Shown piece by piece: positions 10,295 through 30,085 of a DNA stretch of 64,000 bases. The notes under the pieces were generated by a model that was not told the origin of the DNA, ran no database searches, and worked only from the letters and a program-made list of their open reading frames with translations. The translations under genes were made by a program, and so were the position numbers. Each line of letters opens with the position of its first letter. The stretch's first letter is position 1. The DNA is from Escherichia phage phiP4: sequence record PP993145.1, one strand, 5' to 3'.

Positions 10295-10459
10295 AGAACC
10301 CGTTATTTCAACGGGATTTCTTTTTCAATAACAGGAGACTTATCAGTCATAACTGTCATTGCCATTTGTTGTAGAAATTCAAAGGTGAAGGCTACACGTT
10401 CTTCACCAATCTCTACTTCTACACGTTTCTTTTGTTTATCGATCTTGACTTTTAGGTTA

Positions 10460-10681
10460 TCAGCCATCTTCGGGTTCTCGTTGCTGTGCTACTTCTAGCC
10501 AGTCTGGTAGAAGAAACTTTGTACGAAATTCTTCGTAAGTTTCTTTGGGATAAAAGCTAAAACCTCCTTTCTCATCATTCAGGATAACAGAGCCGTCCGT
10601 TTGTTCGTATGCTCGGTATGTTTCTCCAATAACAATAACTCGTTTATCGGTACTTTTATTACGAAACTCAAAAACGTGCAT
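10460..10681 (-). CDS. hypothetical protein
   Basis: 73-aa ORF. Confidence 0.35.
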   Translation of the reverse strand: MHVFEFRNKSTDKRVIVIGETYRAYEQTDGSVILNDEKGGFSFYPKETYEEFRTKFLLPDWLEVAQQREPEDG

Positions 10682-10697
10682 AACGTTTCCTTAAAGT

Positions 10698-10773
10698 TGG
10701 AGCGGCTAGAGGGAATCGAACCCTACTCAGCGAGGCTTGGAAGGCCTGCGACACAACCCGTGTGCTTAACCGC
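10698..10773 (-). tRNA. tRNA-Gly (UCC)
   Basis: Acceptor GCGGTTA/TAGCCGC, T-loop TTCGATT, anticodon loop CTTCCAA. Confidence 0.5.
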
Positions 10774-10781
10774 TTATTATT

Positions 10782-10857
10782 TGGCTGGAGAAGGAGGAAT
10801 CGAACCTACCATTAACGGAGTCAAAGGCCGTTGTGCTAACCGTTACACTACTCTCCA
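10782..10857 (-). tRNA. tRNA-Gln (UUG)
   Basis: U1-A72 acceptor TGGAGAG/TTCTCCA with G discriminator as in bacterial tRNA-Gln; anticodon loop CTTTGAC. Confidence 0.55.
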
Positions 10858-10863
10858 ATTGTT

Positions 10864-10939
10864 TGGCTGGGATGCCACGGATCGAACGTGGAACCTTCGG
10901 AGTCAGAGGCCGACGATCTGCCAATTGATCTACATCCCA
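10864..10939 (-). tRNA. tRNA-Gln (CUG)
   Basis: Acceptor TGGGATG/CATCCCA, discriminator G, D-arm GATC-AATTGGCA-GATC, anticodon loop CTCTGAC. Confidence 0.55.
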
Positions 10940-10948
10940 AGAATGCTA

Positions 10949-11185
10949 TTAGCTAGATGCTGTTTCTACTGGCTGAGAAACAGCAGGCTGTTCTAACGTA
11001 TCTGGTGCTGATACAGAGAAAAGAGCTTGTAATGCTGCAATATCACGCTCGTAAGTATCAATACGAGTAGTAAGAGTATCTACCATCTGTTTATGGTAGG
11101 ATAAGTTATTCTGAGATTCATCTCGAAGAGTTTGCAGTTCTGCAAGACGTGTTAACATAATTTCACTAATTAAAGCATTACTCAT
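10949..11185 (-). CDS. hypothetical coiled-coil protein
   Basis: 78-aa ORF. Confidence 0.35.
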   Translation of the reverse strand: MSNALISEIMLTRLAELQTLRDESQNNLSYHKQMVDTLTTRIDTYERDIAALQALFSVSAPDTLEQPAVSQPVETASS

Positions 11186-11375
11186 TTGTTTCTCCTAAGT
11201 TTTCCTGTTCTTCTAAACGTTTGCCTTCATGATCTACTCGAATAACTCCGCATCCTTCGCAAATCACAACTGCACCATAACCTTCTTTGACCTCAGCTTC
11301 TGTAATCAAACCAGAAAGATCACCAGTATCTCTGCCCCACATATCAATGGAGCATTGTTTGCAGAAATCAGCCAT
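11178..11375 (-). CDS. small Zn-ribbon-like protein
   Basis: 65 aa with CKQC ... CEGC cysteine pairs. Confidence 0.35.
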   Translation of the reverse strand: MADFCKQCSIDMWGRDTGDLSGLITEAEVKEGYGAVVICEGCGVIRVDHEGKRLEEQENLGETNE

Positions 11376-11400
11376 ATTTTATTTCCTATTTAAGTTAATT

Positions 11401-11477
11401 TGGGGTGGCTAGTGGAATTCGAATCCACATAGGCCTGATTCACAATCAGGATCATTAACCAATTATGATATAGCCAC
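11401..11477 (-). tRNA. tRNA-His (GUG)
   Basis: Acceptor GTGGCTA/TAGCCAC, discriminator C, anticodon arm CCTGA-TTGTGAA-TCAGG, T-arm GTGGA-TTCGAAT-TCCAC. Confidence 0.65.
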
Positions 11478-11704
11478 AATTGAAAACTCGCAGGGTTAGC
11501 GAAACCTTCCTCAATTAGCATGTTCTAGAATACTAATCAAGTTATCTCCTATTGCACGCAGCTCAAGACGAGTACGAATTTTCAATTGTGGCGGCTCTCA
11601 GAAACTCTTCTACTCTAGCTTTAGCAGCTTACTCCCGAACGCATGTCGGGGAAGTCTTACCAAGAGCATCAAATAGCACCGTTACACTTTGAGCCATAGA
11701 TGTA

Positions 11705-11800
11705 TCAAGAAGCAGAAGGATTTGAACCTTCACGAGATAGACCAGTTATCTCAGCCGCTTTATGAGGTATGTTGCAGGGAGTGGATGTTCCCTATAAACC
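11705..11800 (-). ncRNA. tRNA-like element, not foldable as a canonical tRNA
   Basis: Perfect T-arm GAAGG-TTCAAAT-CCTTC at 11716-11732 but no complementary 5' acceptor strand found within 100 nt; bounds are a guess. Confidence 0.25.
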
Positions 11801-12040
11801 TTTTAGGCAGCCCCGTCTACCGATTCCGGCATACTTCAAGAATTTTTTATAAACCAGCAGAAGCCTCATTTAAAGCATCAACAATAGCTTCACGTTGGGT
11901 CATTCCATACCCGGTGGAATCTAGGTGTGGCAAATAAGCCATCCATCCCTTATCTGTTTCATGAAGACATGCTTTAAATTTTTTACCATCCTTCATTGTT
12001 ACAGTAACTGTTTTGCTCATAAGATTTCCTTATAGTTAAT

Positions 12041-12130
12041 TGGCAGAAGATAATGGAGTCGAACCATCACCGTATCGCTACAGCGGGCTGGTTTTCAAGA
12101 CCAGTTACGTACCACTACGTCCTATCTTCT
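12041..12130 (-). tRNA. tRNA-Ser (UGA), type II
   Basis: Acceptor AGAAGAT/ATCTTCT, anticodon arm CTGGT-CTTGAAA-ACCAG (as in E. coli tRNA-Ser UGA), long variable arm, 90 nt. Confidence 0.65.
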
Positions 12131-12143
12131 AGTATTTATTATA

Positions 12144-12491
12144 CTAATAGTCACTCGTACTAGTGAAGTTTTCTACTTTTCCACAGATTTTACAAGTCCT
12201 ACGATGATAGTAGGTAATTTTTACTTTAGACCAGCCATCGTGATCATTACCTAGGTTTTCTGTTACTCCCCAAGTATGAGAACACTCATTTTCAATTTGC
12301 TTAGTAAGAGCGTTATAGCGAGTATAAAACTCCTCCTGAGCAATAGCAAATTCTTTCTGTAGTTTATCACGAGCAATAATAGCACGTTCCAGATATGTTA
12401 AATCAGGCATTCCAGCTTTTTCAGCAACATCTATAATCTTATCTTCATCTAAAGATGCTAAAAACTCTAGAGCTTTATCTTTTGTTAGCAT
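12144..12491 (-). CDS. hypothetical protein with C-terminal Zn-ribbon-like motif
   Basis: 115 aa; CSHTWG ... CKICGK. Confidence 0.4.
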   Translation of the reverse strand: MLTKDKALEFLASLDEDKIIDVAEKAGMPDLTYLERAIIARDKLQKEFAIAQEEFYTRYNALTKQIENECSHTWGVTENLGNDHDGWSKVKITYYHRRTCKICGKVENFTSTSDY

Positions 12492-12510
12492 TATTATTAC
12501 CTCAAGTGTT

Positions 12511-12601
12511 TGGCGGAAGAGGAGAGATTTGAACTCTCAAGCCGTTTTACCAGTCAGCCACTTTCCAAGCGGTTTTCGTCACCAATTCGATTTGCTCTTC
12601 C
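12511..12601 (-). tRNA. tRNA-Ser (GGA), type II
   Basis: Acceptor GGAAGAG/CTCTTCC, anticodon region CCGC-TTGGAAA-GTGG resembling E. coli tRNA-Ser GGA, long variable arm, 91 nt. Confidence 0.55.
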
Positions 12602-12611
12602 AATAATAAGA

Positions 12612-12706
12612 TGATGCCTCTATCACACCAGGCAGTTACGCCTCGCTGGGATTCGAACCCATTAAAACAGCTCAACCGAGATAGTAGGTTTAATTTACTC
12701 TGACCA
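12612..12706 (-). ncRNA. tRNA-like element / degenerate tRNA
   Basis: T-arm-like TGGG-TTCGAAT-CCCA at 12646-12662 without an adjacent acceptor stem; distal ends (12612-12618 and 12700-12706) are partly complementary. Confidence 0.25.
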
Positions 12707-12713
12707 TCAAATT

Positions 12714-12790
12714 TGGTGCGTGACAAGGGATTCGAACCCTCAAAACCCGACTTCTAAGGACGGTATGTATGCCAATTCCATCAATCACGC
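12714..12790 (-). tRNA. tRNA, anticodon UAG (Leu-type anticodon, short variable arm)
   Basis: Acceptor GCGTGAT/GTCACGC, T-arm GAGGG-TTCGAAT-CCCTT, anticodon loop CTTAGAA; anticodon stem has one mismatch. Confidence 0.45.
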
Positions 12791-12795
12791 ATATT

Positions 12796-12874
12796 TGGTG
12801 GAGAATAACGGAATCGAACCGTTCTGATGTCCTCGGTGCAAGCGAGGTGTCCACTCCATGCAGACCCATTCCCC
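12796..12874 (-). tRNA. tRNA-Ala (UGC)
   Basis: Acceptor GGGGAAT/ATTCTCC with G3-U70 pair, anticodon arm CCTCG-CTTGCAC-CGAGG. Confidence 0.65.
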
Positions 12875-12887
12875 AAATTCTTTAGTT

Positions 12888-13072
12888 TACTAAGGCTATT
12901 AGCTCGGCGTAACTACAGCACCTTCGCTTCGAGCGGAAGGAACTGCGTCATCTCGCAAACCCAATACACTATTCAGTTGCCGCTGAATCTAGTGGACCAA
13001 TCTAGAACTTCTCCCGAATCAGGGGGATCGTGCTTTTTGGCAGCCAGTCCTAGGTCGAGCTAATACCTTAGT
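12888..13072 (-). ncRNA. structured ORF-free element closed by terminal inverted repeat (candidate small RNA)
   Basis: About 16-nt inverted repeat taaggctattagctcg (12890-12906) / cgagctaatacctta (13055-13070) enclosing a GC-rich stretch with internal hairpins; strand not determined. Confidence 0.3.
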
Positions 13073-13159
13073 GAACTATGATGAGGATTTCTCCTCATCA
13101 ATTTATATAAATATTATAACAAGAAATTAAGCATCAAGCAACTGCGTTTTTTCTTGAAA

Positions 13160-13239
13160 TTGGTAGATCGCCTGGGACTCGAACCCAGAACCTTCCGATT
13201 AAAAGTCGGATGCTACTAAACCTATTGAGCTAGCGATCT
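13160..13239 (-). tRNA. tRNA-Lys (UUU)
   Basis: Acceptor AGATCGC/GCGATCT, anticodon arm TCCGA-CTTTTAA-TCGGA, T-arm CTGGG-TTCGAGT-CCCAG. Confidence 0.7.
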
Positions 13240-13428
13240 ATTAGTAACCATTATACACTTCTTTAATAGAGTGGACTTTTAAGTAAGGGTGATTAGTACT
13301 AAACTCTACCATTACTTCATCCCAATTTTTACCATAATGAGCAAGTAAGGATTTTGATGTATTCTTACCTAATCGTTTATCACTTACTACTAATCGAAAT
13401 ACTTTCATTTCGAAATCCTCTATTAAAA

Positions 13429-13506
13429 TGGAAGCGGGTGCAGGAATCGAACCTACCTCTTTCTAGCTTATGAGACTAGCGATCTCTACCAGAGATCTAA
13501 CCCGCG
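13429..13506 (-). tRNA. tRNA-fMet-like (CAU), initiator-type
   Basis: Anticodon loop CTCATAA; 5' end CGCGGGT with unpaired position 1-72 (C1/U72), the hallmark of bacterial initiator tRNA. Confidence 0.55.
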
Positions 13507-13512
13507 ATTATT

Positions 13513-13588
13513 TGGTCAGTGCGGCAGGACTCGAACCTGCGACCCGAAGCATCCAAGGCTCCCACGCTACCAACTGCGCTACGCACTG
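13513..13588 (-). tRNA. tRNA-Pro (UGG)
   Basis: Acceptor CAGTGCG/CGCACTG, D-arm GCGC-AGTTGGTA-GCGT, anticodon loop CTTGGAT. Confidence 0.65.
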
Positions 13589-13797
13589 TTAATTTTTGTT
13601 AACTCACTTTATAAGATATATTATACAGAGAATTAAGCAGAATAGCAAATGAATTTTTAATAAATTTACTTATTGTGTAGGCCACCTAGAGGCTATGAAC
13701 CCCACGGCTGACAAAGAAGTTTGCGAGACTTCTCTTAAATGCCAGAATAGACCCGCCGATCTATCGGAACCTACATAATAAGTAAACTTTATAGTGT

Positions 13798-13918
13798 CAT
13801 TCTAGACAGGACTCGAACCTGTTATCACTTGTGCGGACTTACGAGAACCATTCTTTCACTCGAATCGAACGAGCTTCTGCCCTCGCCAAGCTGGTTTCCC
13901 CATCAACCACGCTAGAAT
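13798..13918 (-). ncRNA. unusual tRNA-like RNA of about 120 nt (tRNA with large insertion or novel tRNA-like ncRNA)
   Basis: Perfect 7-bp acceptor pairing between 13799-13805 and 13912-13918, perfect T-arm ACAGG-TTCGAGT-CCTGT, D-arm-like TGGT-loop-ACCA, but about 45 extra nt between D-arm and T-arm including a second T-arm-like hairpin. Confidence 0.4.
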
Positions 13919-14040
13919 GTTTGATTGTTTTCAGTGCAAGAGTCCGAGTCTTGGACACGACCGCTTCGCAAGTACATAGGCAGCTTATCATGAGTCAGCA
14001 CTTCCGAATTGCTAGCTCCGTGTTCTGCACTGAAATTTTA

Positions 14041-14388
14041 TTAGTTTAACCGTAAAGTATTATCTACTTCACCATTAATTGTTCGGCATTCTTCTGGGAT
14101 TGCCGGGGTAGCCTTATATTCCCACCACTCAGCACCATCATATTCCCCACGTTCTAACCAAGTTCCATCGGCAAACCATACATTACCATAAAGTAATTGT
14201 CCACCGTATCCAGAATCATATTCAAAGTCTAGGTTATTAAGAAAATCCTCAATATCTTCTTCTGTATAACCTAAAGGTAATACCCAAACTTTTTTATCCC
14301 CATAATACCCGAATTCTATTTTAATACACTTAACTTCAGAATTAGTATTTTTTAAGGCAAGTAACAACTCTTCTTTAGCATTACGCAT
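14041..14388 (-). CDS. hypothetical protein
   Basis: 115-aa ORF. Confidence 0.4.
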   Translation of the reverse strand: MRNAKEELLLALKNTNSEVKCIKIEFGYYGDKKVWVLPLGYTEEDIEDFLNNLDFEYDSGYGGQLLYGNVWFADGTWLERGEYDGAEWWEYKATPAIPEECRTINGEVDNTLRLN

Positions 14389-14413
14389 AATATATTCTCA
14401 TACTGAATTAATT

Positions 14414-14490
14414 TGGCGCGACCGATGGGATTCGAACCCACATTCTCTCCCGTGACAGGGGAGTACCATTACCAAGCCAGCCCCGGTCGC
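14414..14490 (-). tRNA. tRNA-Asp (GUC)
   Basis: Acceptor GCGACCG/CGGTCGC, anticodon arm CTCCC-CTGTCAC-GGGAG. Confidence 0.7.
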
Positions 14491-14499
14491 ATGATCTGT

Positions 14500-14685
14500 T
14501 TATTCAGCTTTGAGTTTTTCAATAGCTGCATTAAGTTCTTTAAGAAACTCTTTTCGTACATTAAGACGATTGAGACTTACTAGTATATCATGTTTAAGTT
14601 CTTCGATGTATTTCTTCTCAACTTCAATATTGTTGATAGTGCTATCACGATGAACTTCTAACTGTGCAATTACATTCTTGGACAT
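14500..14685 (-). CDS. hypothetical coiled-coil protein
   Basis: 61-aa ORF. Confidence 0.35.
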   Translation of the reverse strand: MSKNVIAQLEVHRDSTINNIEVEKKYIEELKHDILVSLNRLNVRKEFLKELNAAIEKLKAE

Positions 14686-14787
14686 GCTTATTTCCTCAGT
14701 TATTAATGAAAATGGTATCTGTGGCTGAATTCGATGTCAGCAATGATAGCTGGTTGGCTACCGGTTTACTTAACTCTACACAGAATT

Positions 14788-14870
14788 TGGCGGGCCGTGT
14801 AGGATTCGAACCTACGTTGTCTTTCGACATGGATTAACAGTCCACCGCCAAACCGCTTGGCTAACGACCC
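14788..14870 (-). tRNA. tRNA-Asn (GUU) with extended variable arm
   Basis: Anticodon arm TGGA-CTGTTAA-TCCA as in E. coli tRNA-Asn; extra GTC-GAAA-GAC hairpin in the variable region; 83 nt. Confidence 0.55.
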
Positions 14871-15022
14871 TAAATTTATATTGCTGACTAGGATTTTCAC
14901 CTAGACGGAGTTAGCACCGTAGCGTGTAGCGGCATACCTCTCCAAACCGTGCCTCATCTTTCAATTACGGAGACAGTGTTCCTACGCGTGCCTGAATTGA
15001 TTTAACAATTCTTTCAGCAAAT

Positions 15023-15098
15023 TGGACGACCGCATGAGATTTGAACTCACATAAAAAGGATTTGCAATCCTTCGCCTAAGCCATTCAGCCAACGGTCG
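15023..15098 (-). tRNA. tRNA-Cys (GCA)
   Basis: Acceptor CGACCGT/GCGGTCG, anticodon arm AAGGA-TTGCAAA-TCCTT. Confidence 0.65.
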
Positions 15099-15165
15099 AT
15101 TTATTATCTTTCATAACGTGCAGCTACATGGTCGGAACCACAACACTTAAATCTAACTAATCGTT

Positions 15166-15408
15166 TCATTTAACACGCTCCGGTAGATCTTCTAGTTTAT
15201 ATTCAGTAGCCACATTAGCAGCATCTAAAAGTAATCCCATGTGTTTAAGGATTTTAGTGATAGATTCGCCTTTGGCTTCTTCTACGAAAGAACGTAGATG
15301 AACAAAGTCAATTCCACCGTCCATACCAGAGAAAATATTTAGTAAGCGAAGCATTACCAGCTTACGTTCATTCAATTCTTGTTCTGTCATGTTGCTTCTC
15401 CAGTTCAA
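15166..15408 (-). CDS. hypothetical protein
   Basis: 80-aa ORF. Confidence 0.35.
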   Translation of the reverse strand: MNWRSNMTEQELNERKLVMLRLLNIFSGMDGGIDFVHLRSFVEEAKGESITKILKHMGLLLDAANVATEYKLEDLPERVK

Positions 15409-15440
15409 TTTATATAATTATTATACAGAACTTTTGGAAA

Positions 15441-15728
15441 CTAAGCAACTACATTTTTTAAGAATTTGATGCCTTTCTTTTTCTTCTTATATTTCCACGT
15501 TAAGGGATTCTGTCGATTATGAACGCTTGAGATCTTCGTCTCGTCAAAGTTCTTCAATATCATGTAATCACAAGATAATTGTTCTAGTGGAATGTGATCA
15601 CCGTCAAAAGCGTATACATAAGGCTGTTGACTAGCACGATAATGATAGACTTTGTTAATTCTACGTTTCAGCGACTTATCCGCGCAGTAAATAAAGAAGT
15701 TTTCAGGATGCATCAGCAGCTCCTTCAA
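15441..15728 (-). CDS. hypothetical protein
   Basis: 95-aa ORF with TTG start. Confidence 0.35.
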   Translation of the reverse strand: MKELLMHPENFFIYCADKSLKRRINKVYHYRASQQPYVYAFDGDHIPLEQLSCDYMILKNFDETKISSVHNRQNPLTWKYKKKKKGIKFLKNVVA

Positions 15729-15730
15729 TT

Positions 15731-15805
15731 TGGTGCACCCTGTTCGTATCGAACGAACCTCTCAAGCTCTTCAGGCAAGCGCTAATCCATCTCAGCTAAA
15801 GGTGC
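15731..15805 (-). tRNA. tRNA-Phe (GAA)
   Basis: Acceptor GCACCTT/AGGGTGC, D-arm GCTG-AGATGGAT-TAGC, T-arm GTTCG-TTCGATA-CGAAC, anticodon loop CTGAAGA; anticodon stem has two U-U mismatches. Confidence 0.45.
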
Positions 15806-15812
15806 AAATTTT

Positions 15813-15888
15813 TGGCAAACCTACTAGGACTCGAACCTAGACCGTACGGTTTTGGAGACCGACATGCTGTCCAGTAACACTCTAGGAA
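15813..15888 (-). tRNA. tRNA-Trp-like (CCA anticodon arm), acceptor not resolved
   Basis: Anticodon arm TCGGT-CTCCAAA-ACCGT matches E. coli tRNA-Trp, T-arm CTAGG-TTCGAGT-CCTAG, but no complementary 5' acceptor strand; 5' bound is a guess. Confidence 0.35.
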
Positions 15889-15897
15889 TGCAGGAAT

Positions 15898-15974
15898 TGG
15901 CGTCCTGTGAGGGGATCGAACCCGCAAATCCTACCTTGAAAGGGTAGTGACTTTACCAGTTTGTCTAACAGGAC
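15898..15974 (-). tRNA. tRNA-Glu (UUC)
   Basis: Acceptor GTCCTGT/ACAGGAC, anticodon arm CTACC-CTTTCAA-GGTAG. Confidence 0.65.
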
Positions 15975-15980
15975 TTAAAT

Positions 15981-16068
15981 TGGTGGGGAAAGATGGAGTC
16001 GAACCACCCGAGTCGCAATGACAACTGATTTACAGTCAGCTCTGCTACCACTTACAGAATATTTCCCC
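15981..16068 (-). tRNA. tRNA-Tyr (GUA), type II
   Basis: Acceptor GGGGAAA/TTTCCCC, anticodon arm GCTGA-CTGTAAA-TCAGT as in E. coli tRNA-Tyr, long variable arm, 88 nt. Confidence 0.65.
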
Positions 16069-16199
16069 ATATTTAGAAGTATTCAAAAAATTCTCATTTA
16101 AACACTTTTAAATATGTTTCCAAATTAGATAAATATTATATCAAGTTTTATAGCACTGAGCAAGTCAAATTTTAAAGAACTTGCTCAGTGCTGTATTAG

Positions 16200-16475
16200 T
16201 TAGTCGAACTTAGGAGTGACAGTTAAGGAGAATGGAAGTTCGAAAACTTCTTCACCCTCATCACTAACAGTAATTACACGACCTTTAAGTTCAGACATTG
16301 AAATATCAATATCAGCTTTTGCATCTGGAGCCATGCCAGCTTCAACACATTTAGCTTTAATTTCCGGTAGAAGTTCTACATCGTAGAAATAAAGCCATTC
16401 AATCTCACCTTCCCAGCCTTCCCAGGATTTACAGATTGCACTTTCAATACCAGCTGCTATAACACGATTTTGCAT
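16200..16475 (-). CDS. hypothetical protein
   Basis: 91-aa ORF. Confidence 0.4.
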   Translation of the reverse strand: MQNRVIAAGIESAICKSWEGWEGEIEWLYFYDVELLPEIKAKCVEAGMAPDAKADIDISMSELKGRVITVSDEGEEVFELPFSLTVTPKFD

Positions 16476-16565
16476 TCGTTAACTCCTCCATCAATTTATA
16501 TAACTATTATACCAGAAATTTAAAGCAAAAGGCAAGTACATTTTTAAAAATTCTGTTTGGAAGAG

Positions 16566-16772
16566 CTAAACTCCAGACTCTTCAGCCAAGTCTAGACTAA
16601 TAAGAGATATAGCCATAATTGCTGCTCCATGTTCTTTTTCTCCAGTTTCTTTAGCTAGAGTTATAATATCAAGAAATTGCTTATGAAAATCTGCAACCTC
16701 TTGAGTTAAACCCGCCTCAGCAATCATACCTTTAAGCATGAAACGTTGTGCGGTAATTTCAGGATTAGCCAT
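16566..16772 (-). CDS. hypothetical protein
   Basis: 68-aa ORF. Confidence 0.35.
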   Translation of the reverse strand: MANPEITAQRFMLKGMIAEAGLTQEVADFHKQFLDIITLAKETGEKEHGAAIMAISLISLDLAEESGV

Positions 16773-16947
16773 GTTGTTTCTCCAGTTTCATCTTTAATAG
16801 TCTACAAATAAAATCAATGTCTTCATCCGTGCCTAGATCTCTATCTTCAAGAGTTGCCTTGAAGTTTTTAGTCAATTCCATGAGAATAACTTCTCTAGAA
16901 CGACGTGTTGGCGGAGGTGGATGTCTATACATCTTATTTCCTTAATT

Positions 16948-17024
16948 TGGTAGGGGTGGTGGGATTCGAACCCACAAAACCTGAATTTTAAGTCCAGTAC
17001 CTATGCCAATTCGATTACACCCCC
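16948..17024 (-). tRNA. tRNA, anticodon UAA (Leu-type anticodon, short variable arm)
   Basis: Acceptor GGGGGTG/CACCCCT, T-arm GTGGG-TTCGAAT-CCCAC, anticodon arm GGAGT... CTGGA-CTTAAAA-TTCAG. Confidence 0.5.
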
Positions 17025-17125
17025 ATGTAATCAGTTTATTAGTTGATACATATTATAGCCTAGTGAAAATCCTACTACTAATCCCACAAACCAACCAATA
17101 TAATAATCTTTTAGTTTCACAGGTA

Positions 17126-17311
17126 TTATCCTCGTTCAATATCTAGGGAAATACCGCAGTTAGGATTAATACCTGTACCATTGCAATTTGCGCAAACCCA
17201 GATATTGCAAAAAGTATCTCCTGCTTCTGCATCAGAACTTTCACCAATTCCCCTACACTCAGGGCAGGCACATTCCTCTAGCTCTTGCTTGAGTTCTTGA
17301 AACTTGGACAT
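17126..17311 (-). CDS. Cys-rich small protein (putative Zn-binding)
   Basis: 61 aa with CACPEC and CANCNGTG clusters. Confidence 0.35.
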   Translation of the reverse strand: MSKFQELKQELEECACPECRGIGESSDAEAGDTFCNIWVCANCNGTGINPNCGISLDIERG

Positions 17312-17319
17312 ATAGTCTC

Positions 17320-17508
17320 CTAGTTAATTACTTTTGAGGCTTCTAAAGCATTGACGTAGTAAACATCTTCTACATTATACATATAGTCTACTACTTTGTC
17401 CATAGCATGGAGTTCAGATGTAGCCTTTACTAGTCTGTACCCTTGCTTAAACTCGTCCGAATGTTCTCTATCTTGTGCAAATTTAACAGAAACTATGAAT
17501 AATTCCAT
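17320..17508 (-). CDS. hypothetical protein
   Basis: 62-aa ORF. Confidence 0.35.
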   Translation of the reverse strand: MELFIVSVKFAQDREHSDEFKQGYRLVKATSELHAMDKVVDYMYNVEDVYYVNALEASKVIN

Positions 17509-17527
17509 TAGTTGTCCTTATTTAATT

Positions 17528-17605
17528 TGGTGGCTCCCCGAGGATTCGAACCTACGTACCTTCCGGTTATGAGCCGGGTGCTCATACCATATGAGCTTGA
17601 GAACC
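17528..17605 (-). tRNA. tRNA, anticodon CAU (Met-type)
   Basis: Acceptor GGTTCTC/GGGAGCC, D-arm GCTC-ATATGGTAT-GAGC, anticodon arm CCGG-CTCATAA-CCGG; T-stem weak. Confidence 0.5.
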
Positions 17606-17611
17606 AAAATC

Positions 17612-17700
17612 TGGCGGAAGAAGTGGGAATCGAACCCACAAGGCTATATTTCAAGCCGACAGATTAGCAATCTGCTGCAATACCGTTATGCTATTCTTCC
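17612..17700 (-). tRNA. tRNA-Ser (GCU), type II
   Basis: Acceptor GGAAGAA/TTCTTCC, anticodon loop TTGCTAA, long variable arm hairpin GGCT...AGCC, 89 nt. Confidence 0.65.
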
Positions 17701-17721
17701 GAATTTATAAGATATATTATA

Positions 17722-18291
17722 TTAGAAATTTAGCTTCATAGCAAGAAAATTTTTCAAGTTTTCGGTAGACATCTCATCCACATCTACAGGAGAAACAAAG
17801 CCGTTTAATTTTCTAGCAAATTTTTCACCTGCAGGGTCATTATCCCCGACAGCTACCAATTTAAAAGGTAATAATTTCAGTTGCTTTAATAACGCTTTTC
17901 CTGGAGAAGAACCCAACATTGCCAGGGCTGGATAACCAGCGTTATGTAACGCAACTGCCTTAAATACAGATTCAGCAATCAATACTACTTTTTCATCTCC
18001 ATTGAGAGTTTCTAGTCCCCATACACACTGGATAGTAGAATAAGTAAAATATTTAGCTTCAAATGGGCACTTACCATGACCTTTTGGAGCAGAAGGATTA
18101 TACGTCTGATAGCCTCTCAACATCCCAGAGAAGTCATACAACGGGACTGTTAGCCATCCTTCCGGACTTAACCAGCAATGATATTTATCTGTATCAAATC
18201 CTCTAGATAAGAGGTGCTGTGTTAGCTCATCAACATTCATATTTGGTTCCTCTCTCAAATTTATAGATATATTATACAGAGAATTTAGCAT
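17722..18291 (-). CDS. Toprim-domain protein (primase-core-like)
   Basis: 189 aa; conserved Glu segment VVLIAESVFKAVAL and DxD segment VAVGDNDPAGE typical of Toprim folds. Confidence 0.45.
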   Translation of the reverse strand: MLNSLYNISINLREEPNMNVDELTQHLLSRGFDTDKYHCWLSPEGWLTVPLYDFSGMLRGYQTYNPSAPKGHGKCPFEAKYFTYSTIQCVWGLETLNGDEKVVLIAESVFKAVALHNAGYPALAMLGSSPGKALLKQLKLLPFKLVAVGDNDPAGEKFARKLNGFVSPVDVDEMSTENLKNFLAMKLNF

Positions 18292-18409
18292 TCAAGCAAT
18301 CAAATTTTTTAACTTTTTAGAGGAAAATCATATGGCACTTAAGGGTAGCAGATAAGTGGTGAGGACCAAAATTTGTGACCCCACTAAAAATCCGGGGGTA
18401 ATTTTTAAA

Positions 18410-18450
18410 GACCCCTTGACATTTTCTCGGGGGTAGTGTAAAGTATACGT
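18410..18450 (+). promoter_or_regulatory. sigma70-type promoter
   Basis: TTGACA (18416-18421), 17-bp spacer, TAAAGT (18439-18444), upstream of the plus-strand three-gene unit. Confidence 0.5.
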
Positions 18451-18506
18451 TATGGATGAGTGATCAAAGAGACACACATTTTCTATATACTAGGAGGTGT
18501 CAAAAA

Positions 18507-19493
18507 ATGACAGAAGAAGTAGCTAAGAGTCCTGAGACCGTCGCTAGCGTTGCAGCAGAACTGCACCGTCACGAGGAATCGGATAAGAAAAAGTGGGAGA
18601 AGGTCAGAGCCTACGAAGAGAAACATCGCGAACACGACGATGAAGAAGATGACGATGATGAACATTGTCATAAATATGGAAAACATAAAATGCAAGAACC
18701 AGTAAACGTATTCACTAGTGGCTTCCCTGGCCTACTGGGTGGTTACCCAGCAAACGCAGGTGCTTTCGGTGGTGAAGGTATGGGACTATTCGGAGCTATC
18801 CTAATCGGTGCTCTATTAACAGGCGGATTCGGTGGTTTCGGTGGATTCGGTGGACGTGGTGTAGTTGGTGATGGTACCGCAGTTGATGCAGTACTTCAGA
18901 ACCAAGATACCGCTAGTATTCTAGCAGCTATTAACACTACTCGTACAGAAGCTAACCAGGGTACTGGAGCTGTTTTAAGCGCAGTTAACAATGGTTTTAG
19001 CCAGACATCCCAAAACCAGAGCCGTGATACTCAGTCTGTACTAACTACGATCTATGGTACAGGTGCTAATCTGTCTAATCAGATCTGCCAGGAAACTCGC
19101 AACGTTATTCAGGGTCAGTTCGATCTTTCTCGCCAGATTGATCAATCTTTCGCAGCTAACCAGATAGCTCGTGCACAAGATAAGTTTGATTCTGCACAGA
19201 TCGCTTTCCAGCAGACTTTACAAACTAATAACCAGTTTGCCGCTGTTCAGGCTCAGATGTGTGCTAACCAGAACTCTCTGGAACGTCAGATCGCTGAATG
19301 TTGCTGTGAACTTCAGACTGCGATCGCTGGTGTAACTACTGCGCGTATCCAGGATGAGTTAGACGCATGTCGCCTACGTGAAGCAATCGCTGCTGGTAGC
19401 GGTGCTAACGGTCAGGTAATTAATCAAATCGCTTTAAGTCTTGGTGCTATCACTCAGACTCTGGCTGGTCTGCAGGCTAAACTGCCGGCTTAA
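18507..19493 (+). CDS. Gly-rich membrane protein with Gln/Asn-rich C-terminal region
   Basis: Start ATG after AGGAGG; charged N-terminus, glycine-zipper TM (GLFGAILIGALLTGGFGGFGGFGG), long Q/N/A/T-rich domain; host-like codon usage. Confidence 0.6.
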   Translation: MTEEVAKSPETVASVAAELHRHEESDKKKWEKVRAYEEKHREHDDEEDDDDEHCHKYGKHKMQEPVNVFTSGFPGLLGGYPANAGAFGGEGMGLFGAILIGALLTGGFGGFGGFGGRGVVGDGTAVDAVLQNQDTASILAAINTTRTEANQGTGAVLSAVNNGFSQTSQNQSRDTQSVLTTIYGTGANLSNQICQETRNVIQGQFDLSRQIDQSFAANQIARAQDKFDSAQIAFQQTLQTNNQFAAVQAQMCANQNSLERQIAECCCELQTAIAGVTTARIQDELDACRLREAIAAGSGANGQVINQIALSLGAITQTLAGLQAKLPA

Positions 19494-19514
19494 TATTAAG
19501 GGGAGGAGCCCATT

Positions 19515-19919
19515 ATGAGTAAATATGGTTTTGTAAATAACGGACTTAATCAAAGTATGGGCTCCCAGCAGCCCATGCCGGGTCTGGATAACCCCTACTT
19601 ACAACAGTTGCAACAGCGTTTAGCAGAAGCGCAACAGATGCAGCAACAACTCCAGCAAAACCCTGGAAGTGTGAGTCCTATGCAAATGATGCAGCAAATG
19701 AGCGGGCAGTCGCAAATGCCTCAACAAATGCAGCAACAGGTGCCGCAGCAGCAAACCCAACAACCGCAGGTTTCTGCGGAAGGACAGGCAGTACTAGCCC
19801 TTTTCGAAGACTTCGCAAAGACAGAGGATGGGAAACAGCTTGTATCACTTATGGGTAAGTTTAATAGCTTCTGCCAAAGCCAAGTTGCAAAAGCTCAAAA
19901 TGGTGGTAATAACTCCTAA
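19515..19919 (+). CDS. Gln-rich low-complexity protein
   Basis: 134 aa, MQQ/QQL repeats; strong RBS GGGGAGGAG. Confidence 0.5.
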   Translation: MSKYGFVNNGLNQSMGSQQPMPGLDNPYLQQLQQRLAEAQQMQQQLQQNPGSVSPMQMMQQMSGQSQMPQQMQQQVPQQQTQQPQVSAEGQAVLALFEDFAKTEDGKQLVSLMGKFNSFCQSQVAKAQNGGNNS

Positions 19920-19928
19920 GGAGGAATT

Positions 19929-20123
19929 ATGTGTTGCAGAAAATCTGTTTCGTGCTGCCCAATGCCTGTAACACGTTGTTGCTCTCCAGCAATGTTTACG
20001 CAAATACCGGCGTTCAATCCGTTTGCCTTTAAACCTATTCTTATCCTGCCCCCTAGAGTAGATTTTCAGTCAAGATTGGCCTCCCGTATGGGTGGTTGCT
20101 GTACACCGAGAGTGTGGTTCTAA
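19929..20123 (+). CDS. small Cys-rich protein
   Basis: 64 aa with CC pairs (MCCRK..CC..CC..GGCC); RBS AAGGAGG. Confidence 0.45.
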   Translation: MCCRKSVSCCPMPVTRCCSPAMFTQIPAFNPFAFKPILILPPRVDFQSRLASRMGGCCTPRVWF

Positions 20124-20137
20124 ACCAAAAAACAAAA

Positions 20138-20170
20138 GCCCCTGCCGAAAGGTAAGGGGCTTTTTCTTTT
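20138..20170 (+). terminator. rho-independent terminator (plus-strand unit)
   Basis: Hairpin gcccct-gccgaaaggta-aggggc followed by TTTTTCTTTT. Confidence 0.65.
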
Positions 20171-20184
20171 GCCTTAAATACAGA

Positions 20185-20220
20185 AAAGCCCGCGCTCTCG
20201 GAGGAAACGCGGGCTTGGTT
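20185..20220 (-). terminator. rho-independent terminator (SPFH gene)
   Basis: Hairpin agcccgcg...cgcgggct with T-run on minus strand, downstream of 20240..21187. Confidence 0.6.
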
Positions 20221-20239
20221 CGAAGATTACGTGTAACTA

Positions 20240-21187
20240 TTACTTGTTACGCATATCCATGATCATTTGACCATCGTAGCCAGTACCTACCACAGTCTGA
20301 GGCACACCACCTTGATACTTCTGAGCACGAATCATTTCAACTTCCAGTTGCTTCCAGCGAATCATCTCAGGAGTAATGGTACGTTGCAATGCGGCGTTAG
20401 CTTCAGCTTCTTTTTTAGCTGCGTACAGTTTAGCATCTGCGTCACGTTCGTTAGCAATAGCCTGGTTATTACGGGCTTCACGGTCTGCTTCTGCCTGTTT
20501 AACTTTTTGCTGTGCTTCTTGTTCAACACGAGCCAACTCAGCTTTTGCAGCATTAACTTGCTCTTCACGAACTTTGGTATTCTGTACCTGTTCCATGATT
20601 ACTGGTGGCAGAGTAATATCCTGAAGGAATACCTGCTTAACTGTGTAACCATATGGGCGTGCATACTCTTCAACTTCTTGTTGAATTGCAGTTTGCAATT
20701 GAGCCTGAATTTTAGCATCAAACAAATCTTGTGCTTTAGGTACAGACTTACCAAACTCACGAATAGTAGACAGTAATTTTTCAGTTACATATTTGTCTAA
20801 CGCTTGATCCTGAGTACCCGCATTAATACGGTTAATCGGTGCCTTAGAACCATCAAACTGCAACATAACAGTCAGGTCAACAGTGGATTTAAACTTATCC
20901 TGGCTAGGAACCTGAAGTTTATCTAATTTTACAGCAATATCTTTTGTACTAAAAGTATCGAAAGATGCAAATGGGTTTACAAGATGGAAACCCGGTAATA
21001 CTGGGTTAGGATCTACTTTACCCAGAAATGTTTGGGTTTTAACCGTACCATCAGAAACAATAGTATATGAATTAAAGGCTAGAATCAAGCCTGCTAAACC
21101 AACTACAGCACCAATACCCCAACGTTTAATAGTACGAATTACTTTCTGCTCAGAAGTCAGTTCTTTCATATTTTTAGTATTAAACAT
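20240..21187 (-). CDS. SPFH/band-7 (stomatin-prohibitin-HflK/C-like) membrane protein
   Basis: 315 aa; N-terminal TM helix, SPFH-like core, C-terminal coiled coil rich in A/E/Q/K/R (AEADREARNNQAIANERDADAKL). Confidence 0.65.
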   Translation of the reverse strand: MFNTKNMKELTSEQKVIRTIKRWGIGAVVGLAGLILAFNSYTIVSDGTVKTQTFLGKVDPNPVLPGFHLVNPFASFDTFSTKDIAVKLDKLQVPSQDKFKSTVDLTVMLQFDGSKAPINRINAGTQDQALDKYVTEKLLSTIREFGKSVPKAQDLFDAKIQAQLQTAIQQEVEEYARPYGYTVKQVFLQDITLPPVIMEQVQNTKVREEQVNAAKAELARVEQEAQQKVKQAEADREARNNQAIANERDADAKLYAAKKEAEANAALQRTITPEMIRWKQLEVEMIRAQKYQGGVPQTVVGTGYDGQMIMDMRNK

Positions 21188-21221
21188 ATATTTCCTTTGT
21201 TTTAGTTACAGTTAATAAAAT

Positions 21222-21296
21222 TGGCCGAGGTGACAGGATTCGAACCTGCATAAAGGAATTTAGAAGACTCCTGCCTCTCCCTTAGACTACACCCCG
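21222..21296 (-). tRNA. tRNA-Arg (UCU)
   Basis: Acceptor CGGGGTG/CACCTCG, T-arm GCAGG-TTCGAAT-CCTGT, anticodon arm GGAGT-CTTCTAA-ATTCC. Confidence 0.6.
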
Positions 21297-24975: not shown

Positions 24976-25677
24976 TCAAATTTTCATTTTTTCGATCATA
25001 GCTGCAACACAATAGCTCTCAACTAAGGCATCGAATGCTGGATCATGCTTAACTGGATAGATTCCATAACGAATAGTGTCCATTTTCTCCATTTTAGCGG
25101 TTGCCCAGCTAATACCTTCAGCCTCTAGCTCTTTGTAACTATATCCAGCTTGCATCCAGAGATTACGAAGAGATCGAACATTGCCCAAATTCCAGAATTT
25201 CCACGGAACTACCTCTTCATTGGTTCCAGCATGGAAAGTGTTTGCAGAGTAGATAGTCATATCAAACTCTGGGCCATTGCCATAATACAAAGCATTATCG
25301 CCTAGAGCCAACTCCATAATATTTTGAGCCATAGAGTAGGCAGCATAGTTAGAGCCGAGTTTATTAGTACAATGATGTTTACCGTTTTGGAATGCAATCA
25401 GCTTTGGATTACGCTCGTTCATAGCTTGCATAATGTGGATAGCAGACGGGCTGTCTTTAGCTTGATCCATCCAGAATGCTAGAGTAGATGCTGTAACTTT
25501 AGCACCAGAGTTAAGCTGATCTTGTACATCCAAAGTAACAAATACTAGATCAGGGTCTTTATCAATTCCATGCATAGCCACAAAAGCGAAAGAAGGCATT
25601 GCGATATGAGTAGTACCACAATCTCCTGGAGTTCCTAGAGATTCAATATCTAGCATACCAAATGGTTTTACTTTCAT
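24976..25677 (-). CDS. DEDD-type 3'-5' exonuclease-like protein
   Basis: 233 aa; N-terminal DxE motif MLDIESLG and C-terminal HDPAFD (H-x4-D) motif. Confidence 0.45.
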   Translation of the reverse strand: MKVKPFGMLDIESLGTPGDCGTTHIAMPSFAFVAMHGIDKDPDLVFVTLDVQDQLNSGAKVTASTLAFWMDQAKDSPSAIHIMQAMNERNPKLIAFQNGKHHCTNKLGSNYAAYSMAQNIMELALGDNALYYGNGPEFDMTIYSANTFHAGTNEEVVPWKFWNLGNVRSLRNLWMQAGYSYKELEAEGISWATAKMEKMDTIRYGIYPVKHDPAFDALVESYCVAAMIEKMKI

Positions 25678-25705: not shown

Positions 25706-25942
25706 TTAAAGAGCTGTCTCTTTAATAGACTCCCACTTCTTGGGGTCTTTAAAACCAGGAAGCATATCCTCACTGACATCCCAGTTCTCTTCCATAGAGA
25801 AGTCGGGCCATTCATTCCAGCTACCTTCCAGCTCTTCATAACAGGTGTCCATTACCTCATGACTAGAAAGTCGTGTATAATCCCTAGCTGACTTATGGGT
25901 GCTAGCACGGTTAAAATCATTCTTTGCCACAAAATTACGCAT
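25706..25942 (-). CDS. hypothetical acidic protein
   Basis: 78-aa ORF. Confidence 0.4.
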   Translation of the reverse strand: MRNFVAKNDFNRASTHKSARDYTRLSSHEVMDTCYEELEGSWNEWPDFSMEENWDVSEDMLPGFKDPKKWESIKETAL

Positions 25943-26778: not shown

Positions 26779-26853
26779 TATTTGTTTTCCTTTTTGTTTA
26801 TCAATTTATGAAGTATATTATACGAGAATTTGAAGCGTTTAGCAAATGAATTT

Positions 26854-27303
26854 TTAATTTATTAACTGTAAGCTTCTTTTAATTTCAGACCTTACCTGCA
26901 TCAAAAGAACTCCTAAAGTATTATCCCCGATGCCTCGGCAAACACCCCAATATGTATCTCCCCAGGTATTTCCTTCGATCAAAGTTGCATTTTTTGTTGC
27001 TAACAGTTTGTCTCTCAAATCAGGGATTGCAAACTTTAACCGTAAAAGCTCTAGCATTACATCATCTTTTACCTTATCCCAGTCAGAGCGCAGAGTTAAT
27101 TTACGTCCTCTACGTTTGGCAACACCTGCATTTAGGGAGCGCAGTACATGAGCTACATCATCTTTTTGGTCGGATTTCATAGCCTGAAAAGCGTGTTCTA
27201 CAGTATCAGCATGCCATATTTCATTTAGATATTCGAAAGTAATTGGTGATAAATAAAAGTTTGATAAGAAACTATAAGCACCTTTAAATTCAGTAATCTT
27301 CAT
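26854..27303 (-). CDS. NADAR-domain protein (YbiA-like)
   Basis: 149 aa; FLSNFY ... EHAFQAMK ... WGVCRGIGDNTLGVLLM segments as in the NADAR/YbiA family. Confidence 0.7.
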   Translation of the reverse strand: MKITEFKGAYSFLSNFYLSPITFEYLNEIWHADTVEHAFQAMKSDQKDDVAHVLRSLNAGVAKRRGRKLTLRSDWDKVKDDVMLELLRLKFAIPDLRDKLLATKNATLIEGNTWGDTYWGVCRGIGDNTLGVLLMQVRSEIKRSLQLIN

Positions 27304-27584
27304 TTTTTACGCCCCGCATCTTTAGCCTCTTCGGCTGTATAGATATACTGATAAGCCCCTTTGGAGTAGGCTGGAGCAGTACACATTTTCTTACGCTCAA
27401 TCTCTTCTTGAGCTTTTCTTTCGCGTTCAGCTAATTCTTCGTCCAGATAAACTAAACGTTGTTCTGGAGGGGGTGGAAGACGTGTTTCTGGCTCACCAAT
27501 ATTAGCCTTTCTTATTTGACGAGGTGATTGTGCACGTTTTCTCAATGGTTTAAATCCTAATGAATTTGAGTTATAAATCCGCAT
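27300..27584 (-). CDS. hypothetical protein
   Basis: 94-aa ORF coupled to NADAR gene. Confidence 0.4.
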   Translation of the reverse strand: MRIYNSNSLGFKPLRKRAQSPRQIRKANIGEPETRLPPPPEQRLVYLDEELAERERKAQEEIERKKMCTAPAYSKGAYQYIYTAEEAKDAGRKK

Positions 27585-27661
27585 AAAGCCCTCCTCACTT
27601 TCAATACGAATATTATACTAAATTAGAGGGCTTTAAGCAAGAGAATTTTTTAATTTATTTA

Positions 27662-28712: not shown

Positions 28713-29552
28713 TTAAGAGGACATTTTAGCTTTAAGAGCTGGATGTGGGTCATATCCTTCAAGGTGGAAGGACCAAGCCGCAGTATTATTCTCTAATAAA
28801 TCATAGAGATCTACAAATTCTGGCATTACTAGAGTTGGCAAAGGACGTGGTTTACGTTTCATTTGCTCCTCTACTTGCTCTATATGATCACTGTAAATAT
28901 GTGTATCTCCACCACTAAAGATGAGATAACGAGGTTTTAATCCAGTCAATTTTGCTAGGATATGTGTTAATAAAGCATAACTAGCAATATTGAAAGGTAG
29001 GCCTAGAAAACAGTCTACAGAACGTTGTGTCCATTTAAGATCTAAGTATCCATCATTACTTACGTAACACTGGAAACCATAGTGACATGGTGGTAATGCC
29101 ATCTTATCTAGTTCGGCAACGTTCCATGCAGATACTAGGTGTCTACGACCATGTGGATTATTCTTGAGACCCTCAATGAGTTCTAGGATCTGATCTCGTC
29201 CACCAAAGTTGCGCCATTGTTTACCATATACTGGTCCTAGATTACCGTTGTCATAGCCCATACTTATAGCTTGGTCTTCATAATTTGGAGTCCAGATAGT
29301 CCACTGTCCTTCGTCACGCCCAAATGTGAATACTCGCAGATCATGGAGATTTGTAGATCCAGATAAAAACCACAGGAGTTCTCCAACTACTGATTTCCAA
29401 GCTAGACGTTTAGTGGTTACGGCGGGGAATCCCTCACGTAGGTCGAACTTAGCATAGGAATCAAAAATTGAAACTGTGCCTGTTCCTGTACGATCGTTAC
29501 GTGGTTCACCCAGTAAAATTACATCTGTTAGAATTTTTAAATATTGTTGCAT
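28713..29552 (-). CDS. thyA: thymidylate synthase
   Basis: 279 aa; NDRTGTGT, FPAVTTKR, ELLWFLSG conserved blocks. Confidence 0.95.
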   Translation of the reverse strand: MQQYLKILTDVILLGEPRNDRTGTGTVSIFDSYAKFDLREGFPAVTTKRLAWKSVVGELLWFLSGSTNLHDLRVFTFGRDEGQWTIWTPNYEDQAISMGYDNGNLGPVYGKQWRNFGGRDQILELIEGLKNNPHGRRHLVSAWNVAELDKMALPPCHYGFQCYVSNDGYLDLKWTQRSVDCFLGLPFNIASYALLTHILAKLTGLKPRYLIFSGGDTHIYSDHIEQVEEQMKRKPRPLPTLVMPEFVDLYDLLENNTAAWSFHLEGYDPHPALKAKMSS

Positions 29553-30085
29553 TAATAAGTAACCAATTCCTGTACAAATCGCAGGCTGTTATCACTGTTT
29601 GCGCCAGTTGCGTAAACTAAACGAGTAGATTCATAGTTGTAATCTAGAATCGTATTATCTAGATGTACATCTGCCTCTAGTTTTTGATCACTAAAGATTG
29701 TGGATACAAAAGCACTTTCAATATGTCCATGAATATACATTTCGTACAGTAATGTTGCACCACCTAAAACCACTGTCTGTTGATCTTTCAGAAATGTAGG
29801 TAAAGCATCCCCAATCTTAGAAATTGGAGTGTAAATATCATGTGTAATATCGTCTGGTAGTGGACGATCAGCACGAATAAATAGGTCAGAAGCTCCAATC
29901 ATACGTTCCCTAACGGCGTATGGAAGAGCTAAATAAGTACCCGCACCAATGATGATGTTATCTGGATTCAACACGTCCAGTTGAGAATAGAAAGCATCTA
30001 GTTCTTCTTTGAAGGAACCCCATGGAAGTTTACCGCGGAGGCCGAACTCCCCATTCGGCCCAACTGCATACATTGCTGTAATCAT
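29552..30085 (-). CDS. folA: dihydrofolate reductase
   Basis: 177 aa; LPW and VLGGATLLYE segments; translationally coupled to thyA and nrdB. Confidence 0.75.
   Translation of the reverse strand: MITAMYAVGPNGEFGLRGKLPWGSFKEELDAFYSQLDVLNPDNIIIGAGTYLALPYAVRERMIGASDLFIRADRPLPDDITHDIYTPISKIGDALPTFLKDQQTVVLGGATLLYEMYIHGHIESAFVSTIFSDQKLEADVHLDNTILDYNYESTRLVYATGANSDNSLRFVQELVTY

What the first reader, a model, noticed from the sequence alone, without database searches (positions are those of the whole stretch)
26854..27303. NADAR-domain protein: candidate ADP-ribose-processing / anti-defence enzyme
The ORF has the conserved NADAR/YbiA blocks (FLSNFY, EHAFQAMK, WGVCRGIG..LG). NADAR enzymes have been reported to remove ADP-ribose from DNA guanine, the modification installed by DarT toxins, so a phage copy is a plausible counter-defence gene. 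It sits in an early-gene block next to RNase H and nucleotide-metabolism genes.
Basis: partly seen in the sequence, partly recalled or inferred. Interest (0 to 1): 0.6.

Follow-up and report, generated by a model that had tools for sequence, protein, structure and literature searches.

The report
Known phage anti-DarT1 NADAR enzyme (AdfN)

Summary

The window is a T5-like phage, 99.2% identical to Escherichia phage slur09 over a 2-kb stretch. The protein is 148/149 identical to the NADARs of BASEL phages Bas32 and Bas33 and sits in the same gene order. That protein, AdfN-Bas32, was shown in Nat Commun 2025 (PMC11825919) to neutralise DarT1 toxicity and to restore plaquing of RB69, T5 and Bas25 on DarTG1 hosts. 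It did not help against DarTG2.

The gene is accessory. T5 lacks it through a clean indel of about 450 bp, and 95 phage records carry it. A 60%-identical allele sits at a neighbouring site in another T5-like phage.

Verdict: observation confirmed, interpretation supported, already known. Most database records still mislabel the gene "swarming motility protein YbiA" or "GTP cyclohydrolase II".

The parts
26854..27303 (-). NADAR-domain CDS (149 aa), ortholog of AdfN-Bas32, an anti-DarT1 DNA ADP-ribosylglycohydrolase
27196..27198 (-). Codon for E36, the catalytic glutamate. It aligns with T4 AdfN E36 and, from the shared 7-residue Glu-Lys spacing rather than a direct alignment, E. coli C7 NADAR E88.
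   Evidence: Invariant in the 10-sequence and 118-sequence alignments. Mutational evidence is in PMC11825919 and PMC11543638.
27175..27177 (-). Codon for K43, the phosphate-coordinating lysine. It aligns with T4 AdfN K43; equivalence to C7 K95 and PnNADAR K50 is inferred from the shared 7-residue Glu-Lys spacing.
   Evidence: Invariant. Literature.
27103..27117 (-). Codons K63..R67 of the AKRRGR motif, aligned with PnNADAR K75/R79, which shield the ADPr pyrophosphate.
   Evidence: Alignments. K63 is nearly invariant and R67. The residue roles come from PMC11543638.
26956..26958 (-). Codon for D116 of the GDTYWG motif, the conserved Asp taken by motif position (no C7 sequence was aligned here) to correspond to E. 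coli C7 NADAR D171.
   Evidence: Invariant across 118 homologs. Literature.
27300..27584 (-). Upstream gene, a T5.090 homolog (94 aa, phrog_4593, function unknown). Its stop codon overlaps the NADAR start (ATGA at 27300-27303), so the two are probably co-transcribed and translationally coupled.
   Evidence: 91% identical to T5.090. Only the last 10 or so residues differ from T5, at the insertion junction.
27585..27661 (-). Probable promoter region for the T5.090-like/NADAR pair, homologous to the promoter annotated in T5 between rnh and T5.090.
   Evidence: T5 annotation. The sequence is nearly identical to T5 in alignment A1. It contains TTGCTT-17 nt-TATAAT, read from the sequence. Function is inferred, not shown.
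26817..26845 (-). Promoter-like site (TTGCTA-17-TATAAT) homologous to T5 promoter P-H207. It belongs to the downstream DUF7022 gene and marks the downstream edge of the NADAR insertion.

Best explanation
The gene encodes a stand-alone, minimal-core NADAR ADP-ribosylglycohydrolase, the ortholog of AdfN-Bas32. It is probably expressed with the early genes of a T5-like phage, as the second cistron behind the T5.090 homolog. When a host DarT1 toxin (DarTG1 defence) ADP-ribosylates guanine N2 in phage DNA and blocks replication, the enzyme binds the ADP-ribose and cleaves the ribose-guanine N-glycosidic bond. K43, K63 and R67 contact the phosphates, and E36 and D116 act at the distal ribose. This restores unmodified DNA, so the enzyme acts as an orphan antitoxin. 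Shown here: the ORF, the fold, residue conservation, near-identity and synteny with the tested protein, and accessory-gene status. Shown by others on a protein differing by one residue: DarT1 neutralisation and phage rescue. Inferred: the timing and promoter of expression, and that this phage needs the gene on DarTG1 hosts.
Against: No experiment was done on this exact allele. The published tests used ectopic expression, and the text I read reports neither a deletion in Bas32/Bas33 nor their native DarTG1 phenotype. In sequence and fold the protein is closest to E. coli YbiA, and YbiA failed to protect against DarT1 in vivo despite activity in vitro (PMC11125620). Resemblance alone would therefore not have predicted the function. 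The natural substrate range could be broader than DNA guanine-ADPr.
Confidence: 0.88

Rival explanations
1. It is a YbiA-type housekeeping enzyme, an N-glycosidase that destroys reactive riboflavin-biosynthesis intermediates, carried by the phage as an auxiliary metabolic gene beside its nucleotide-metabolism genes.
Against: The TIGR02464 score is below the curated equivalog cutoff of 73.7. No riboflavin gene is among the neighbours examined between 24 and 31 kb. A protein differing by one residue has demonstrated anti-DarT1 activity in vivo. The gene is dispensable and patchy among T5-like phages, which fits an anti-defence gene better than a metabolic one. The published phylogeny places AdfN-Bas32 with archaeal NADARs and outside the YbiA group.
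Confidence: 0.04
2. Its principal natural target is a different ADP-ribosyl modification, and DarT1 reversal is a side activity. Candidates are guanine- or cytidine-ADPr on RNA or DNA made by pierisin/ScARP-like, YarT-like or other ART toxins and defence systems.
For: NADARs of several families also remove G-ADPr from RNA. The NADAR and YbiA families, which this protein most resembles, remove cytidine-ADPr, whereas DarG1 and T4 NADARs do not (PMC12945103). YbiA-like proteins act as antitoxins to a non-DarT ART, YarT (PMC11125620). The authors of PMC11825919 raise this possibility themselves.
Against: No such substrate has been tested for AdfN-Bas32. DarTG1 rescue restored full titre for three phages, which is what a cognate activity would give. 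No ART partner gene is adjacent.
Confidence: 0.07
3. It is a chance ORF or a decaying pseudogene remnant with no function.
For: The gene is absent from T5 and from most T5-like phages.
Against: The domain is full length, all catalytic residues are intact, 95 records hold the gene at 95% or more nucleotide identity over at least 80% of its length (the 60 records listed individually are all full length), the synonymous-to-nonsynonymous ratio is about 9:1, and the model has pLDDT 97.4.
Confidence: 0.01

Closest known systems
AdfN-Bas32 (bas32_0066 / bas33_0070; Johannesman et al., Nat Commun 2025, PMC11825919)
   Same: 148/149 residues, the same length, the same position in the same gene order in a T5-like (Markadamsvirinae) genome, and the same catalytic residues.
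   Different: One substitution against each record: K104E against Bas32 and A9T against Bas33, both at positions that vary among homologs. The host phage is slur09-like rather than a BASEL isolate. The two GenBank proteins differ from each other at these two residues, although the paper calls them identical.
AdfN-T4 (gp30.3), the T4-type phage NADAR (Pfam PF08010)
   Same: NADAR fold, the E36/K43 catalytic pair at the same residue numbers, and an anti-DarTG1 role.
   Different: Only 22% identity. No PF08010 hit was returned at E<=0.01. T4 AdfN works fully only during T-even infection and does not neutralise DarT1 alone, whereas AdfN-Bas32 does. The published analysis infers independent acquisition.
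E. coli YbiA (PDB 2b3w)
   Different: YbiA did not protect against DarT1 in vivo and is linked to riboflavin-intermediate cleavage. The window protein falls below the TIGR02464 cutoff.
DarG1, the DarT1-associated NADAR antitoxin (G. lovleyi 8bat, E. coli C7)
   Same: The same chemistry and the same toxin neutralised, so it is a functional analogue acting as an orphan antitoxin.

Membership tests
NADAR superfamily (Pfam PF08719 / DUF1768) | Profile match above Pfam's gathering threshold over the full domain | tested here: met
   78.9 bits against a cutoff of 35.1, covering profile positions 9-163 of 163
NADAR superfamily (Pfam PF08719 / DUF1768) | YbiA-like alpha-helical core fold | tested here: met
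NADAR superfamily (Pfam PF08719 / DUF1768) | Active-site Glu, Lys and Asp plus the phosphate-binding Lys/Arg | tested here: met
   E36, K43 and D116 are invariant in 118 homologs. K63 and R67 align with PnNADAR K75 and R79 (residue roles)
NADAR superfamily (Pfam PF08719 / DUF1768) | Guanine-ADPr glycohydrolase activity | not testable with these tools
   Activity was shown in vivo for the 99.3%-identical AdfN-Bas32, not for this allele
AdfN-Bas32 ortholog group (T5-like phage anti-DarT1 NADAR) | Near-identity to the tested protein | tested here: met
   148/149 to both Bas32 and Bas33
AdfN-Bas32 ortholog group (T5-like phage anti-DarT1 NADAR) | Same genomic position (rnh, T5.090-like, NADAR, DUF7022) | tested here: met
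   Searches compared
AdfN-Bas32 ortholog group (T5-like phage anti-DarT1 NADAR) | Rescue of phage on DarTG1 hosts and neutralisation of DarT1 | not testable with these tools
   Published for AdfN-Bas32 only
YbiA / TIGR02464 riboflavin-intermediate N-glycosidase (equivalog) | Score at or above the NCBIfam curated cutoff | tested here: not met
   66.5 bits against a cutoff of 73.7
YbiA / TIGR02464 riboflavin-intermediate N-glycosidase (equivalog) | Fusion to, or neighbourhood with, riboflavin (ribA/ribD) genes | tested here: not met
   The protein is a single domain of 149 aa. Its neighbours are RNase H, a T5.090-like gene, DUF7022, an exonuclease, thy and frd
DarG1 (DarT1-linked NADAR antitoxin, BC4488 family) | Encoded next to a DarT1 ADP-ribosyltransferase | tested here: not met
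   No ART domain was found in the flanking genes scanned
DarG1 (DarT1-linked NADAR antitoxin, BC4488 family) | N-terminal beta-beta-alpha extension forming a basic DNA groove | tested here: not met
T4-type phage NADAR (Pfam PF08010, Phage_30_3) | Profile match to PF08010 | tested here: not met
   Only PF08719 was returned at E<=0.01. Identity to gp30.3 is 22%
DS-32 NADAR anti-phage protein (NF053876) | Score at or above the curated cutoff | tested here: not met
   44.9 bits against a cutoff of 240. PADLOC returned only a weak PDC-M42C match at 27.7 bits

The most novel reading that the evidence does not exclude
The minimal, YbiA-like AdfN clade of T5-like phages may be a broad-spectrum eraser. 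Besides DarT1's guanine-ADPr on DNA, it might remove cytidine-ADPr and RNA-linked ADPr, as the NADAR and YbiA families do and the T4 and DarG1 types do not. It would then protect against ART-based defences not yet identified. The two independent insertions of divergent alleles either side of T5.090 would mark a small anti-defence hotspot downstream of rnh in Markadamsvirinae.
Probability: 0.2. Interest if true: 0.4.

Novelty: already known. Interest (0 to 1): 0.15.

Why it matters
The biology has been published: phages carry orphan NADAR antitoxins that erase DarT1's ADP-ribosylation of DNA. What this check adds is practical. It gives a firm functional label for a gene that most of the 95 public T5-like phage records call "swarming motility protein YbiA", "GTP cyclohydrolase II" or "hypothetical". 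It shows that the gene is a clean presence/absence marker, which should predict DarTG1 resistance among otherwise near-identical T5-like phages and is useful when choosing therapeutic or typing phages. It also shows that a second, 60%-identical allele was acquired separately at the adjacent intergenic site.

Tried and rejected
Four classifications and one other check were tried and gave negative results.

1. YbiA equivalog. TIGR02464 scores below its cutoff.

2. DarG1-type or defence-system NADAR. NF053876 is far below its cutoff. PADLOC has no DarG-type hit, only PDC-M42C at 27.7 bits. No DarT gene is adjacent.

3. T4-type gp30.3 family. No PF08010 hit was returned, and identity is 22%.

4. 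Supplementary tables of PMC11825919, wanted for accession numbers, are not held. Identity was established instead through the bas32_/bas33_ locus tags in GenBank.

5. The consensus promoter scan did not list the T5-homologous promoter upstream of the T5.090-like gene, because its -35 hexamer TTGCTT matches only 3 of 6 positions. The assignment rests on homology to the T5 annotation.

A literature search for later work on AdfN found only T4-focused follow-ups. I did not scan the rest of the window for macrodomain or ART genes, and I did not trace the cellular origin of the clade.

Full report
**Observation.** An ORF from ATG to stop occupies exactly 26854..27303, on the minus strand, and encodes 149 aa.

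The profile evidence is strong:
- Pfam NADAR (PF08719) scores 78.9 bits, E 6.9e-22, against a gathering cutoff of 35.1, and covers almost the whole profile.
- PHROG phrog_1017 gives E 8e-45.
- The best solved-structure sequence matches are E. coli YbiA 2b3w (E 3.5e-15) and the Phytophthora nicotianae NADAR 8bau (E 6.7e-07).

A DUF7022 gene and an exonuclease-like gene lie downstream.

**What the genome is.** A 2-kb stretch around the gene is 99.2% identical to Escherichia phage slur09, and 441 T5-like (Demerecviridae) records match it. The window also holds a T5-type cluster of 22 tRNA genes.

**Structure and active site.** An AlphaFold2 model built on 118 homologs has mean pLDDT 97.4 and pTM 0.91.
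- Foldseek against the PDB returns only two significant matches: YbiA (TM 0.82) and PnNADAR in complex with ADP-ribose (TM 0.78).

The protein is the minimal YbiA-like core. It has none of the N-terminal extension described for DarG1-type NADARs (PMC11543638).

In an alignment with T4 gp30.3/AdfN and the YbiA and PnNADAR segments, E36 and K43 are invariant. They fall on T4 AdfN E36 and K43, the residues whose alanine mutants lose most anti-DarTG1 activity (PMC11825919; alignment). They have the same 7-residue Glu-Lys spacing as E88 and K95 of E. coli C7 NADAR, from which I infer that they are equivalent; no C7 sequence was aligned here. K63 and R67 align with PnNADAR K75 and R79, which shield the ADPr pyrophosphate. 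D116 in GDTYWG is the conserved Asp. E36, K43 and D116 are invariant across 118 homologs.

**Identity with a characterised protein.** A tblastn search of the phage collection found the protein at 99.3% identity in Escherichia phage HildyBeyeler (MZ501074). The locus tags of that record (bas33_00xx) show that it is BASEL phage Bas33.

A direct comparison gives 148/149 identical residues, the one difference being A9T. The Bas32 record (IrisVonRoten, MZ501075, bas32_0066) is also 148/149 identical, differing at K104E. Both positions vary among homologs. In Bas33 the gene order is the same as in the window: nrdB, frd, thy, hypothetical, rnh, T5.090-like, NADAR, DUF7022. The Bas32 stretch retrieved shows the core order rnh, T5.090-like, NADAR, DUF7022.

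Johannesman et al. (Nat Commun 2025, PMC11825919) named this protein AdfN-Bas32 and reported the following:
- It neutralises DarT1 toxicity in E. coli without phage infection.
- Ectopic expression restores RB69, T5 and Bas25 to full titre on DarTG1 hosts.
- It has no effect on DarTG2, which modifies thymidine.

The published experiments used ectopic expression. I found no deletion of the gene in Bas32 or Bas33 in the text I read, so necessity in the native phage remains an inference.

**Anatomy and evolution of the locus.** T5 itself lacks the gene. Alignment shows a clean indel of about 450 bp between the T5.090 homolog (window 27300-27584, 91% identical to T5.090) and the promoter P-H207 of T5.089, the DUF7022 gene. 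Only the last 10 or so residues of the T5.090 homolog differ from T5. Its stop codon overlaps the NADAR start (ATGA).

The NADAR is thus most likely the second cistron of a transcript from the promoter that T5 annotates between rnh and T5.090. That promoter is nearly identical in the window at about 27585-27661. This step is inferred.

The gene is present in 95 phage records at 95% or more nucleotide identity, out of 441 records that share the surrounding region, so it is an accessory gene. T5's absence of the gene fits its reported DarTG1 sensitivity.

Differences from Bas33 and Bas32 are overwhelmingly synonymous, at 10:1 and 8:1, which indicates purifying selection.

In the Epseptimavirus UTK0009, a NADAR that is 60% identical and has the same catalytic motifs sits on the other side of the T5.090 homolog. 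The order there is rnh, NADAR, T5.090-like, DUF7022. This points to a second, independent acquisition at the neighbouring intergenic site. More distant relatives (35-50% identity) are widespread in phages of Streptomyces, Vibrio, Stenotrophomonas, Bacillus and other hosts.

**Rivals.**
- *YbiA-type riboflavin-intermediate N-glycosidase.* This is the most serious rival on resemblance, since YbiA is the closest structure. However, the equivalog model TIGR02464 scores 66.5 against a cutoff of 73.7, no riboflavin genes are nearby, and the gene is patchy among near-identical phages. YbiA itself does not protect against DarT1 in vivo (PMC11125620), whereas AdfN-Bas32 does.
- *A broader or different natural substrate.* Cytidine-ADPr or RNA-linked ADPr is not excluded. 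The NADAR and YbiA families, which this protein most resembles, remove C-ADPr, while T4 AdfN and DarG1 do not (PMC12945103).
- *DarG1, T4-type gp30.3 and DS-32 defence NADAR.* Each of these memberships was tested and not met.

**Verdict.** It is already known as AdfN-Bas32, so interest is low.

The residual value lies in three points:
- Most records call the gene "swarming motility protein YbiA", "GTP cyclohydrolase II" or "hypothetical"; one calls it "antitoxin-like enzyme". These labels can be corrected.
- The gene is a presence/absence marker among T5-like phages.
- A divergent allele has been inserted independently at the adjacent site.

Noticed in passing
L004 (Salmonella phage UTK0009, OQ359889) 2489-2938, compared with window 26854-27584: A second NADAR allele, 60% identical, sits between rnh and the T5.090 homolog. 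In the window the NADAR sits between the T5.090 homolog and DUF7022, and T5 has neither. This looks like two independent insertions at adjacent intergenic sites, possibly a small anti-defence hotspot.
   Followed up: partly
L001 3001-3450 (Bas33) and L005 601-1050 (Bas32): The GenBank NADAR proteins of Bas32 and Bas33 differ at two residues (A9T and E104K), with 14 nucleotide differences between the genes. PMC11825919 describes them as identical. The window protein is one residue from each.
   Followed up: yes
window 9209-21296 (-): A cluster of 22 tRNA genes on the minus strand, including two tRNA-Met, two Gln, two Leu and two Ser. This is the usual T5-type tRNA region.
   Followed up: no
window 24976-25677 and 25706-25942 (-): Two adjacent ORFs (233 aa and 78 aa) match consecutive parts of one PHROG profile, phrog_255 'exonuclease' (profile positions 177-363 and 75-147). 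They look like a split or two-gene version of a protein that is a single chain elsewhere. The larger ORF is annotated 'exonuclease' in T5 but 'putative metallopeptidase' in BASEL records, and Pfam gives an Rv2179c-like 3'-5' exoribonuclease domain.
   Followed up: no
public records OR848833, OR847649 ('Listeria phage LM 4-14-1' and 'LM 4-11-1') and OQ031075 ('Klebsiella phage KPP2018'): Short records labelled Listeria phage, and a 138-kb Klebsiella phage record, carry this enterobacterial T5-like segment at 95-99% identity. These are probably mislabelled fragments, contamination or a chimeric assembly.
   Followed up: no
window 29552-30085 (-): The gene syntenic with T5 frd (dihydrofolate reductase) reaches only 16.8 bits against Pfam DHFR_1 (cutoff 25). 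It is either a very divergent DHFR or something else.
   Followed up: no
window 27300-27584 (-): The T5.090 homolog (phrog_4593, 94 aa, basic and proline-rich N-terminal half, no Pfam hit) is conserved across T5-like phages. It is translationally coupled to the NADAR here, and its function is unknown.
   Followed up: partly
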